Shown: piece after piece, positions 60,901-63,900 of the stretch
Position numbering within the stretch: the stretch's first letter is position 1
Layout: each line of letters starts with the position of its first letter
Assembly (NCBI RefSeq): GCF_030013205.1
Contig: NZ_CP122648.1
Reading direction: 5' to 3' (one strand)
DNA: 64,000 nt
Origin: Escherichia coli
GTDB lineage: Bacteria > Pseudomonadota > Gammaproteobacteria > Enterobacterales > Enterobacteriaceae
Position numbers: made by a program

Positions 60901-63900
60901 AGTGGCGCTGGTGCACCATCACCAACAGATCTATTGCACCATGCAAGGTATGACAAATTAATGGATGCGTTTCGTGGCGTTGGCTATAACGTCACTACGA
61001 CAGATGAACTTCGTCATGCTTTAACCACCGGTATTCAGTCGCGCAAACCGACCATTATTAATGTGGTCATCGACCCTGCAGCAGGAACTGAAAGTGGCCA
61101 TATTACCAAACTTAACCCAAAACAAGTCGCTGGTAATTAAATACTGACATCGTCTCCTCTTGCCAACTCATTATCGATGGTGAGGGGACCCTTATCGGAA
61201 ATACTATTATGCTAACATTTTTTATTGGCGATTTATTGCCTATTATCGTAATCATGCTGTTGGGTTATTTTAGCGGCAGACGAGAAACTTTTTCAGAAGA
61301 TCAAGCCCGGGCATTTAATAAACTGGTATTAAACTACGCTCTTCCTGCGGCCCTATTTGTTTCTATTACCCGGGCAAACAGGGAAATGATTTTTGCGGAC
61401 ACTCGCCTGACCCTTGTATCACTTGTGGTTATTGTCGGATGTTTCTTTTTCTCCTGGTTTGGTTGCTACAAATTTTTTAAACGTACTCATGCAGAAGCAG
61501 CAGTATGTGCATTAATTGCAGGTTCACCTACCATCGGATTCCTGGGATTTGCAGTTCTCGATCCTATTTATGGTGATTCCGTATCAACAGGTTTAGTTGT
61601 AGCAATTATTTCTATTATTGTTAACGCAATTACTATTCCTATTGGTCTGTATTTGCTGAATCCCTCCTCAGGAGCGGATGGTAAGAAGAATAGTAATCTG
61701 AGCGCATTAATTTCTGCGGCAAAGGAGCCAGTAGTATGGGCACCTGTTCTGGCAACGATCCTGGTGTTGGTTGGGGTAAAAATTCCGGCAGCATGGGACC
61801 CAACCTTTAATCTGATTGCGAAGGCTAACTCAGGGGTAGCGGTATTCGCTGCGGGGTTGACTCTGGCTGCACATAAATTCGAGTTCAGTGCCGAAATTGC
61901 TTATAACACCTTCCTGAAGCTAATTCTGATGCCACTGGCGCTGCTTCTCGTTGGTATGGCATGTCATTTGAACAGCGAACATTTGCAGATGATGGTACTG
62001 GCAGGCGCCTTACCGCCGGCATTCTCCGGAATCATTATTGCCAGCCGGTTTAATGTCTACACCCGCACTGGTACAGCGTCACTGGCTGTGAGCGTACTGG
62101 GCTTTGTCGTCACGGCTCCTTTGTGGATTTATGTCAGTCGACTGGTTTCATAATTAATCATGTTATTGATTTTACATAAATGCCGAAGTGTCTTTTCACC
62201 TTCGGCTTTTTTGTGCACAGAAAACCCCCAGCTAGGCTGGGGGTTCCGGAAAGCTTTCAGCTTTGAGCCAGTTATTAAAACCCCTTTTGATTTGTTAAAA
62301 CACCTTGCGGTCTGGCAACTGCAAGTGTCAAACAAGAAATCAAAAGGGGGTCCCAATGGGGAACGAAAAGAGCTTAGCGCACACCCGATGGAACTGTAAA
62401 TATCACATAGTTTTTGCGCCAAAATACCGAAGACAAGTGTTCTACAGAGAGAAGCGTAGAGCAATAGGCAGTATTTTGAGAAAGCTGTGTGAGTGGAAAA
62501 GCGTACGGATTCTTGAAGCTGAATGCTGTGCAGATCATATCCATATGCTTGTGGAGATCCCGCCCAAAATGAGCGTATCCGGCTTTATGGGATATCTGAA
62601 AGGGAAAAGCAGTCTGATGCTTTACGAGCAGTTTGGTGATTTGAAATTCAAATACAGGAACAGAGAGTTCTGGTGCAGAGGGTACTACGTCGATACGGTG
62701 GGTAAGAACACGGCGAAGATACAGGATTACATAAAGCACCAGCTTGAAGAGGATAAAATGGGAGAGCAGTTATCGATTCCCTATCCGGGCAGCCCGTTTA
62801 CGGGCCGTAAGTAACGAAGTTGGATGCAAATGTCAGATCGTGTGCGCCTGTTAGGGCGCGGCTGGTAAGAGAGCCTTATAGGCGCATTTGAAAAACCTCC
62901 GGCTATGCCGGAGGATATTTATTCAAGGCATAAGCAAATGACAAATAATGAATGCAAAGGGCCGTTTGAAGGCTTATTAGTTATCGATATGACACATGTC
63001 CTTAATGGACCTTTCGGAACTCAACTTCTTTGTAATATGGGCGCAAGGGTAATTAAAGTTGAGCCGCCGGGTCATGGTGATGATACCCGCACATTTGGTC
63101 CCTATGTGGATGGACAGTCACTCTATTACAGTTTTATTAATCATGGCAAAGAGAGTGTGGTTCTTGATTTAAAGAATGATCACGATAAAAGTATATTTAT
63201 AAATATGCTTAAACAAGCTGATGTATTAGCTGAGAATTTTCGCCCAGGTACAATGGAAAAACTGGGGTTTTCATGGGAAACGCTACAAGAAATCAACCCG
63301 CGTCTCATATATGCTTCATCGTCAGGTTTTGGGCATACCGGCCCGCTAAAAGATGCTCCTGCCTACGATACCATCATTCAGGCAATGAGCGGGATAATGA
63401 TGGAAACAGGGTACCCTGATGCTCCGCCAGTGCGCGTGGGTACCTCTCTTGCGGATTTATGTGGCGGTGTCTATTTATTCAGCGGAATAGTGAGTGCACT
63501 TTATGGCCGCGAAAAGAGCCAGAGAGGGGCGCATGTCGATATAGCGATGTTTGATGCCACGCTGAGTTTTCTGGAGCATGGTCTGATGGCATATATTGCG
63601 ACAGGGAAGTCACCACAACGCCTGGGAAATCGCCATCCCTACATGGCACCTTTTGATGTTTTTGATACTCAGGATAAGCCGATTACTATTTGTTGTGGTA
63701 ATGACAAGCTTTTTTCTGCGTTATGCCAGGCACTGGAGCTTACGGAACTGGTTAATGATCCCCGATTTAGCAGCAATATTTTACGCGTACAAAACCAGGC
63801 TATTCTTAAACAATATATTGAGCGAACGTTAAAAACGCAGGCAGCTGAAGTTTGGTTAGCCAAAATACATGAAGTTGGTGTGCCCGTCGCGCCGTTATTA

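What the first reader, a model, noticed from the sequence alone, without database searches (positions are those of the whole stretch)
62153..62938. IS200 copy 2 separates yfdE from the yfdX-frc-oxc-yfdV operon
yfdE begins 15 bp after the IS200 right end, and the element brings its own terminator-like left-end hairpin. This could polar-block yfdE expression, or alternatively place it under an IS-derived promoter, modifying the oxalate/formyl-CoA acid-resistance pathway in this strain.
Basis: inference. Interest (0 to 1): 0.35.

Follow-up and report, generated by a model that had tools for sequence, protein, structure and literature searches.

The report
IS200 inserted after the yfdV terminator
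An ordinary 711-bp IS200 insertion sequence sits between yfdV and yfdE in a pig-associated E. coli lineage, landing just after a terminator hairpin that was already there, so it probably only lowers yfdE expression further.

Summary
62153-62938 is the whole yfdV-yfdE spacer. Comparison with empty sites puts the IS200C copy at 62213-62923 (711 bp, +/-2 nt, no target duplication). yfdE's ATG (62938) is 15 bp after the right end, and its Shine-Dalgarno sequence is untouched.

The IS sits directly after that T-tract. This placement is the rule for the element:
- Copy 1 in the window and 6 of 6 other E. coli copies sit the same way.
- 85 of 99 independent IS200-group left junctions from other species do too, against 1.5% of random positions.

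The insertion is rare. It occurs in 17 of 5,426 complete E. coli genomes, all from pigs or wild boar.

The IS adds a left-end hairpin, reported to stop about 85% of incoming transcripts, and a terminator-like right-end hairpin. No outward promoter was found. The most likely effect is stronger, incomplete attenuation of EvgA-driven read-through into yfdE. This is inferred, not shown. An IS-derived promoter is unlikely.

The element is a known kind and the interest is low. The by-product, terminator targeting by IS200, is more interesting but has been partly reported.

The parts
61209..62153 (+). yfdV (transporter YfdV), the upstream gene. Its stop codon ends at 62153.
   Evidence: Pfam Mem_trans E 2.4e-80. 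NCBIfam PRK09903 transporter YfdV, 714 bits. RefSeq annotation.
62182..62212 (+). Native yfdV-yfdE intergenic terminator-like hairpin (62182-62206) plus T6 tract (62207-62212). It is not part of the IS. It is the insertion target.
   Evidence: Present unchanged in empty sites L002 and L003. Folds at -12.4 kcal/mol, z = -4.1. The consensus scan missed it because the stem is bulged or the loop long.
62213..62923 (+). IS200 (IS200C-like) copy 2, 711 bp, with no terminal inverted repeats and no target duplication. The boundary is ambiguous by up to 2 nt to the left.
   Evidence: Compared with empty sites, 1501 bp here correspond to 790 bp there. Co-linear with copy 1 from 62208 to 62923. 100% identical full-length copies occur in other E. 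coli.
62223..62245 (+). IS200 left-end perfect hairpin, corresponding to nts 12-34 of Salmonella IS200. It is a documented bidirectional Rho-independent terminator. By analogy with the family it is probably also the TnpA-bound subterminal structure; that second role is inferred.
   Evidence: Folds at -18.7 kcal/mol. Rfam STnc490 model positions 1-23. Function from PMC4513863 and PMC5435999.
62284..62346 (+). tnpA 5'UTR stem-loop that sequesters the tnpA Shine-Dalgarno sequence. The antisense art200 RNA would start near 62364 on the - strand; this is mapped by analogy to Salmonella numbering.
   Evidence: Rfam STnc490 helix, model positions 62-124. Function and art200 start sites at nt 153/154 from PMC4513863. 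The coordinate transfer is my inference.
62356..62814 (+). tnpA, an intact 152-aa Y1 HUH transposase. The HUH motif is HIH within ADHIHML, and tyrosines lie in RGYYVD.
   Evidence: PDB relatives 2ec2, 2a6m (ISHp608 TnpA) and 2vhg at E 4e-23 to 4e-19. The protein is identical to that of copy 1.
62896..62923 (+). IS200 right-end hairpin (62896-62914) plus ATATTTATT. It is terminator-like on both strands and is preceded by GAAAAA.
   Evidence: Terminator scan hits on + and - strands. Folds at -15.9 kcal/mol, z = -4.9.
62924..62940 (+). Unaltered native 14-nt leader CAAGGCATAAGCAA, with the yfdE Shine-Dalgarno-like AAGG at 62925-62928, followed by the yfdE ATG at 62938-62940.
   Evidence: Identical in filled and empty sites.
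62938..64000 (+). yfdE (acetyl-CoA:oxalate CoA-transferase). The reading frame is open to the end of the window.
   Evidence: Pfam CoA_transf_3 E 6e-114. NCBIfam PRK11430 CoA:oxalate CoA-transferase, 822 bits. Enzyme function from PMC3720670.
36431..37141 (+). IS200 copy 1, directly after the pdeA terminator (AAAAAAACCGGGGAATTATCCCCGGCTTTTT) and convergent with nupC. It sits at the same kind of target.

Best explanation
This is a 711-bp IS200C-type insertion sequence of the IS200/IS605 family, with a Y1 HUH transposase that moves by single-strand 'peel and paste' transposition. In an ancestor of a pig-associated E. coli lineage it integrated at its preferred kind of target: the 3' end of the T-tract that follows an intrinsic-terminator hairpin. 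Here that is the native hairpin plus T6 between yfdV and yfdE.

Its top strand has the sequence of the lagging-strand template, as is usual for the family. The insertion leaves yfdE's Shine-Dalgarno sequence and ATG intact.

A transcript coming from yfdV now has to pass three structures in series:
- the native hairpin;
- the IS200 left-end terminator (about 85% efficient in Salmonella);
- the terminator-like right-end hairpin.
It also has to cross about 700 nt of poorly translated RNA.

The predicted consequence is a further, incomplete reduction of EvgA-dependent read-through into yfdE. At most a low constitutive contribution would come from the weak tnpA promoter.

Shown here: the identity of the element, its boundaries, its target, its distribution, and the structures.
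Inferred: the effect on yfdE.
For: Identity of the element.

Boundaries and absence of a target duplication come from the empty sites.

Target rule:
- Both window copies sit after a hairpin plus T-tract.
- So do 6 of 6 other E. coli IS200C copies, after glnS, ompX, lom, the rplL-rpoB attenuator, a hypothetical gene and plaP. Each is co-oriented with its upstream gene.
- 85 of 99 independent left junctions in Yersinia, Vibrio, Brenneria, Mailhella, Bacillota and others have a strict terminator motif. At random positions the figure is 45 of 3000.
- Positions -6 to -2 are 65-97% T (position -1 is T by the way I defined the junction), and -12 to -8 are GC-rich.
- A preprint reports terminator-like sequences over-represented upstream of IS200/IS605 elements (10.1101/2025.07.22.666184).

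Strand: GC skew is positive on the + strand across the window. The family rules of a 3'-of-target insertion and of the lagging-strand template are from PMC5027513.

Polarity:
- The left-end hairpin is a bidirectional terminator that stops about 85% of upstream transcripts. The tnpA promoter is weak, and IS200 was found as a polar hisD mutation (PMC4513863, PMC5435999).
- The right-end hairpin is flagged as terminator-like.
- No outward sigma-70-like site is present.
- yfdWUVE is co-expressed under EvgA (PMC3720670).

Distribution: 17 of 5,426 genomes, all from pigs or wild boar. In contrast, 2,063 genomes carry a near full-length IS200 somewhere.
Against: - No transcript or protein data exist for yfdE in any strain with the insertion.
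- The efficiency of the native hairpin as a terminator is unknown. If it already stops nearly everything, the IS adds nothing. If yfdE has an unmapped promoter inside yfdV, the reasoning still holds but the magnitude is unknown.
- Two viable UPEC genomes carry IS200 in the same orientation at the rplL-rpoB attenuator, upstream of the essential rpoBC genes. Polarity is therefore leaky or compensated.
- The 85% figure comes from Salmonella IS200 reporter constructs, not from this copy.
- The terminator association could partly reflect survival of harmless insertions rather than target choice.
Confidence: 0.6

Rival explanations
1. The insertion is functionally neutral. The native hairpin plus T6 already sets yfdE transcription, or yfdE is barely expressed and under weak selection, so the extra IS hairpins make no physiologically meaningful difference. 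The IS persists only as a lineage marker.
For: - IS200-group elements almost always sit just after terminators, where insertions are least harmful.
- The insertion is confined to one pig-associated lineage with near-identical flanks.
- YfdE is described as having only a secondary, accessory role in the oxalate-induced acid tolerance response (PMC3720670).
- An IS1 also occupies the same spacer in another pig strain, which suggests the spacer tolerates insertions.
Against: - yfdE is reported as co-expressed with yfdWUV under EvgA, so read-through of the native hairpin occurs and can be reduced.
- The left-end terminator is strong in reporter assays.
- One sub-lineage (EC556, EC571, EC581) has yfdE annotated as frameshifted, which fits loss of use after the insertion.
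Confidence: 0.28
2. The IS drives yfdE. Transcription from the tnpA promoter, or from another promoter inside the IS, reads through the right-end hairpin and gives yfdE an EvgA-independent, constitutive expression.
For: - tnpA is co-oriented with yfdE, and the right-end tail ATATTTATT is an imperfect U-tract, so some read-through is plausible.
- Strains with IS200 between rplL and rpoB are viable, so downstream genes still get transcribed by some route.
Against: - The tnpA promoter is described as intrinsically weak and its elements are undefined (PMC4513863).
- No sigma-70-like site lies on the + strand between 62213 and 62938.
- The right-end hairpin (-15.9 kcal/mol) is flagged as terminator-like.
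- The 14-nt gap excludes a hybrid promoter with a normal leader.
- I found no outward promoter described for IS200 in the papers I read.
Confidence: 0.1

Closest known systems
IS200 of Salmonella enterica / IS200C of E. coli (IS200/IS605 family, IS200 group)
   Same: - About 0.7 kb with a single 152-aa Y1 HUH transposase gene.
- A left-end hairpin at nts about 12-34, a 5'UTR stem-loop over the Shine-Dalgarno sequence, and a right-end hairpin.
- No inverted repeats and no target duplication.
- RefSeq names the gene an IS200C family transposase, and full-length copies 100% identical occur in other E. coli.
   Different: Nothing structural differs. It measures 711 bp here against the 707 bp quoted for Salmonella IS200 (PMC4513863), and the end is ambiguous by 1-2 nt. 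The only new thing is the site, the yfdV-yfdE spacer.
IS1541 of Yersinia pestis / Y. pseudotuberculosis
   Same: The 19-nt left-end hairpin core is identical. The right end (GAAAAACCTCCGGCTATGCCGGAGGATATTTATT) is identical. The Y. pestis copies show the same placement after hairpin plus T-tract (loci L097-L123).
   Different: The left tip differs (GTGCCCAG against GTGCACAG). The copy number is much higher, and tandem copies with a right end abutting a left end are present (L098, L099, L101).
IS608 / ISDra2 (IS200/IS605 family, mechanistic models)
   Same: The transposase fold and motifs are shared (PDB 2a6m, 2vhg, 2xm3). The left end inserts 3' of a short specific target on single-stranded DNA of the lagging-strand template (PMC5027513).
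   Different: Those elements use TTAC or TTGAT and also carry tnpB. Here the flank is a T-tract preceded by a hairpin, and there is no tnpB. Whether the hairpin is recognised is unknown.
Polar IS insertions within operons (for example hisD984::IS200)
   Same: An IS carrying a terminator is placed between a promoter and a downstream gene (PMC4513863).
   Different: This one is intergenic. It sits on top of a pre-existing attenuator-like hairpin and leaves the downstream ribosome-binding site intact, so the expected effect is quantitative rather than a knockout.

Membership tests
IS200 group of the IS200/IS605 family | Encodes a Y1 HUH (Y1_Tnp) transposase of about 150 aa with the HUH motif and a catalytic Tyr | tested here: met
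   Pfam PF01797 E 3.8e-38. NCBIfam NF033573, 147.7 bits against a cutoff of 55. HIH and RGYY are present in the translation. PDB TnpA relatives at E down to 4e-23.
IS200 group of the IS200/IS605 family | About 700 bp, tnpA only (no tnpB), with no terminal inverted repeats | tested here: met
   711 bp by empty-site comparison. A single transposase ORF. The ends GTGCACAG... and ...ATATTTATT are not inverted repeats.
IS200 group of the IS200/IS605 family | No target-site duplication on insertion | tested here: met
   The filled site equals the empty site plus 711 bp. The only shared bases are up to 2 T, and these belong to the T6 tract.
IS200 group of the IS200/IS605 family | Subterminal hairpins at both ends; the left end carries the terminator hairpin and the 5'UTR stem-loop | tested here: met
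   Rfam RF01405, 146 bits, full length 1-124. Left-end hairpin -18.7 and right-end hairpin -15.9 kcal/mol.
IS200 group of the IS200/IS605 family | The left end inserts 3' of a short element-specific target; the top strand lies on the lagging-strand template | tested here: met
   A T-rich flank lies at -6 to -1 in 99 junctions and in 8 of 8 E. coli sites. GC skew is positive on the + strand. The rule is from PMC5027513. The strand assignment rests on GC skew only.
IS200 group of the IS200/IS605 family | Transposition activity of this copy | not testable with these tools
   The ORF and both ends are intact. Differing IS200 match counts among closely related pig isolates (19-33 places per record, one of which is the yfd locus itself) suggest recent activity in the lineage, but this is indirect.
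Polar (transcription-blocking) IS insertion | Reduced expression of the downstream gene relative to the uninterrupted allele | not testable with these tools
   Only the structures could be examined, together with literature values for the left-end terminator.
IS-borne outward promoter activating a neighbouring gene | A promoter within or across the IS end, directed at the neighbouring gene | tested here: not met
   No sigma-70-like site lies on the + strand of 62213-62938. Only 14 nt separate the right end from the ATG. A consensus scan cannot exclude weak or non-canonical promoters.

The most novel reading that the evidence does not exclude
IS200-group transposases may choose intrinsic terminators as integration sites by sequence and structure, rather than merely surviving there. 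On the lagging-strand template, a terminator's A-rich 5' side, GC hairpin and T-tract look like the element's own right end (GAAAAA, hairpin, ATATTTATT). The invariant GAAAA just 5' of the left-end hairpin would act as the guide that pairs with the T-tract. Under this reading, insertions such as yfdV|yfdE and rplL|rpoB are predictable 'terminator-stacking' events that retune read-through at natural attenuators.
Probability: 0.4. Interest if true: 0.45.

Novelty: already known. Interest (0 to 1): 0.2.

Why it matters
For the strain, the consequence is modest. At most it weakens or uncouples expression of an accessory enzyme, YfdE (acetyl-CoA:oxalate CoA-transferase), in the oxalate-linked acid-tolerance cluster. 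It also gives a clean marker for a pig-associated E. coli lineage that includes O139:H1 and ETEC isolates.

More generally, IS200-group elements sit directly after terminator T-tracts across many taxa. They sometimes occupy real attenuators such as rplL-rpoB. This helps explain why the element is so well tolerated, helps predict where it will be found, and makes its target choice testable with existing transposition assays.

Tried and rejected
- The consensus promoter/terminator scan did not flag the native yfdV hairpin or the left-end hairpin. The first has a bulged stem or an 11-nt loop, and the second has no T-run on the + strand. I therefore used folding and my own scan.
- I looked for primary data on read-through into yfdE. 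Masuda & Church 2002 (PMC151933) and Fontenot 2013 (PMC3624534) are not held. Full-text searches for yfdE with promoter or terminator gave nothing useful.
- I looked for an explicit published statement that IS200 or IS1541 targets terminators. I found only the 2026 preprint's statistical over-representation and the 'mobile attenuator' idea (PMC2965389). Older subscription papers could not be checked. Barabas 2008 (PMC2680152) is not held.
- I considered that the evgA frameshift annotated in K_EC180 makes the whole question moot. I rejected this as a general explanation because W13-16 and EC556 have intact evgA. K_EC180 also has emrK marked as frameshifted, which suggests assembly indel errors.
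- I considered independent insertions at the same site in the Japanese strains. With only 1 SNP in about 7.3 kb of flank, a single insertion followed by gene conversion between IS copies is at least as likely. This is not resolved.
- The Rfam STnc490 hit is on the + (tnpA-sense) strand, whereas Ellis et al. describe STnc490/art200 as antisense. I treated the hit only as a marker of the IS200 left end.
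Full report
**1. What is at the coordinates**

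The + strand of the window end carries these genes:
- yfdX, 56997-57629
- frc, 58142-59392
- oxc, 59446-61140
- yfdV, 61209-62153
- a 152-aa ORF, 62356-62814
- yfdE, starting at ATG 62938 and running off the window

The window is 100% identical over 61800-63300 to several porcine E. coli chromosomes. RefSeq annotates exactly this gene order there, with 'IS200/IS605-like element IS200C family transposase' between yfdV and yfdE.

The ORF is a Y1 HUH transposase:
- Pfam Y1_Tnp, E 3.8e-38.
- NCBIfam transpos_IS200, 147.7 bits.
- An HIH motif and RGYY in the translation.
- Solved relatives include ISHp608 TnpA.

Rfam RF01405 (STnc490, the IS200 left end and 5'UTR) matches 62223-62346 over its full length at 146 bits.

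A second copy lies at about 36431-37141. It differs at five bases, all synonymous.

**2. True boundaries**

The finding's span, 62153-62938, is the whole intergenic region. Most complete E. coli genomes have an empty site that is 711 bp shorter (790 bp against 1501 bp). In L002 and L003 the empty site reads ...GCCGAAGTGTCTTTTCACCTTCGGCTTTTTT|CAAGGCATAAGCAAATG.

The inserted DNA is therefore 62213-62923 (GTGCACAG...ATATTTATT). The boundary can slide by up to 2 nt. There is no target duplication and there are no inverted repeats.

The 14-nt leader with the AAGG Shine-Dalgarno sequence is untouched.

**3.

Bases 62182-62212 are native. They form a hairpin (-12.4 kcal/mol, z = -4.1) followed by T6, which gives an intrinsic-terminator or attenuator shape. 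This structure is present in the empty sites I read (L002, L003) and upstream of the IS1 junction in ETEC1738.

yfdE is thus already separated from yfdV by a terminator-like structure whose T-tract ends 14 nt before the ATG. The literature treats yfdWUVE as co-expressed and EvgA-activated (PMC3720670). Read-through of this hairpin must therefore be how yfdE is normally transcribed.

The IS's own left-end hairpin is a different structure at 62223-62245 (-18.7 kcal/mol).

**4. Why the IS is exactly here**

Copy 1 sits in the same way, directly after the pdeA terminator: AAAAAAACCGGGGAATTATCCCCGGCTTTTT|GTGCACAG.

I scanned one genome per species for the 19-nt left-end hairpin core. This gave 120 loci, including Yersinia pestis (IS1541), Vibrio, Brenneria, Dickeya, Edwardsiella, Pluralibacter, Budvicia, and MAGs of Oxalobacter, Mailhella, Desulfovibrio, Bacillota, Peptococcaceae and Elusimicrobia.

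- After removing duplicates and unrelated hits, 85 of 99 independent left junctions have a strict hairpin-plus-T-tract motif ending at the IS. At random positions in the same loci the figure is 45 of 3000.
- The mean fold energy of the 41 nt upstream is -18.2 kcal/mol, against -7.0 at random positions.
- Most of the 14 junctions that failed the strict test still have bulged or long-loop hairpins. The yfdV site is one of them.
- Positions -6 to -2 are 65-97% T (position -1 is T by the way I defined the junction), and -12 to -8 are GC-rich. The element's bases just 5' of its own hairpin are an invariant (G/A)AAAA.

Six further E. coli IS200C copies were picked by rank only. All six sit directly after a hairpin plus T-tract and are co-oriented with the upstream gene. 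The upstream genes are glnS, ompX, a prophage lom, rplL, a hypothetical gene and plaP.

This fits the family rule that the left end inserts 3' of a short element-specific target on single-stranded DNA of the lagging-strand template (PMC5027513). The window's + strand has positive GC skew throughout, so the IS top strand has the lagging-template sequence.

A 2026 preprint reports terminator-like sequences as statistically over-represented upstream of IS200/IS605 elements. I found no explicit mechanistic description in the library I could search.

**5. Distribution**

IS200-like DNA occurs in 3,096 of 5,426 complete E. coli genomes, and near full-length in 2,063. The yfdV|yfdE insertion occurs in only 17, all from pigs or wild boar. 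They include O139:H1 strains, an ETEC series, K_EC180 and three Japanese isolates.

The three Japanese genomes have almost the same flanks as the window, with 1 SNP in about 7.3 kb. Their IS, however, carries the five 'copy-1' alleles. yfdE is annotated as frameshifted in EC556, where the A5 run at 63257-63261 is A4; EC571 and EC581 give the same 1,500-bp match at 99.6%.

A single ancestral insertion followed by gene conversion between IS copies is the simplest reading. A second hit at the same target is not excluded.

**6. How it most likely works**

These points are shown:
- the native hairpin plus T6;
- the left-end hairpin;
- the 5'UTR stem-loop;
- an intact tnpA;
- the right-end hairpin (62896-62914, -15.9 kcal/mol) followed by ATATTTATT and flagged as terminator-like on both strands;
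- the unchanged yfdE leader.

These points come from the literature:
- The left-end hairpin is a strong bidirectional terminator that stops about 85% of upstream transcripts.
- The tnpA promoter is weak, with a transcription start near nt 40.
- IS200 was discovered as a polar insertion.

Inference: EvgA-driven transcripts that pass the native hairpin now meet two more hairpins and about 700 nt of poorly translated RNA. yfdE induction should therefore fall.

An IS-borne promoter is unlikely, for three reasons:
- No sigma-70-like site lies on the + strand of the IS.
- The right-end hairpin stands between tnpA and yfdE.
- The 14-nt gap leaves no room for a hybrid promoter.

Polarity cannot be absolute. 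Two UPEC genomes carry IS200 in this orientation at the rplL-rpoB attenuator, upstream of the essential rpoBC genes.

My estimates are: meaningful polar attenuation about 0.6, effectively neutral about 0.28, IS-driven expression about 0.1.

**7. Comparison with what is known, and verdict**

Every defining feature of an IS200-group element that could be tested was met (see the membership table). It is an instance of a well-known element and is already annotated in public genomes. The specific insertion is a rare lineage marker with a plausible but untested quantitative effect on an accessory gene.

The more interesting by-product is the near-universal, cross-phylum placement of IS200-group elements directly after terminator T-tracts. 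The terminator may mimic the element's own right end. A-tract guide pairing is my hypothesis, and tandem copies with a right end abutting a left end in Y. pestis and Mailhella are compatible with it. This is testable but has been partly anticipated.

Overall interest is low.

Noticed in passing
window 36431-37141 (+): IS200 copy 1 sits directly after the pdeA terminator (A7, hairpin, T5) and is convergent with nupC. It differs from copy 2 at 5 positions (62436, 62514, 62583, 62664, 62697 in copy-2 coordinates), all synonymous, and the TnpA protein is identical.
   Followed up: yes
L124 (E. coli EC556, Japan), equivalent to window 62213-62923 and 63257-63261: In EC556 the IS at the yfdV|yfdE site carries exactly the five copy-1 alleles, although the flanks differ from the window by 1 SNP in about 7.3 kb. 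This points to gene conversion between IS copies or a second hit at the same target. yfdE is annotated as frameshifted there (A5 to A4); this could be real decay or a homopolymer sequencing error. EC571 and EC581 give the same 99.6%, 1,500-bp match but were not read.
   Followed up: partly
L126 (E. coli ETEC1738), equivalent to window about 62157-62165: A different IS, IS1, with the 9-bp target duplication AATCATGTT, occupies the same yfdV-yfdE spacer in another pig isolate. It lies just after the yfdV stop codon and upstream of the native hairpin.
   Followed up: partly
L131 (E. coli 82.0311); also UPEC69 (hit H76): IS200C is inserted directly after the rplL-rpoB attenuator hairpin (GGCTGGTGACTTTTTAGTCACCAGCCTTTTT|GTGCACAG), co-oriented with rplL and upstream of the essential rpoBC genes, in two UPEC genomes. 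This is a natural test that IS200 polarity is leaky or compensated.
   Followed up: partly
L098, L099, L101 (Yersinia pestis NCTC5923); L077 (Mailhella MAG): Tandem IS200-group copies occur in which the left end of one abuts the right-end hairpin plus T-rich tail of another (...GGAGGATATTTATT|GTGCCCAG...). This fits a right end that resembles the preferred target, or retained circle-junction-like dimers.
   Followed up: no
L004-L096 (genome-contig loci): The identical 19-nt left-end hairpin core CCCCCAGCTAGGCTGGGGG occurs in elements from very distant taxa: Oxalobacter, Vibrio, Peptococcaceae, other Bacillota, Mailhella/Desulfovibrio, Elusimicrobia and Saccharibacteria MAGs. Many lie at contig ends. 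This implies wide horizontal spread, or some MAG mis-binning. A Ruminococcus element (L086-L096) uses the same hairpin in a different context.
   Followed up: no
L001 11938-12551 and 12967 onward (K_EC180, outside the window): evgA, the activator of the yfd genes, and emrK are annotated as frameshifted in K_EC180 but are intact in W13-16 and EC556. These are probably strain-specific changes or assembly indel errors.
   Followed up: partly
window 62223-62346: The Rfam STnc490 hit is on the tnpA-sense (+) strand, whereas Ellis et al. describe STnc490/art200 as antisense to the tnpA 5'UTR. The strand convention of the Rfam model may differ from the literature.
   Followed up: no
window 15400-15505 and 48219-48324: A 106-nt inverted repeat pair, 75% complementary, with arms 32.7 kb apart, was reported by the repeat finder. 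Its nature was not examined.
   Followed up: no
window 56001-64000: The yfd cluster is markedly AT-rich (GC 0.446) compared with the rest of the window (0.49-0.54).
   Followed up: no
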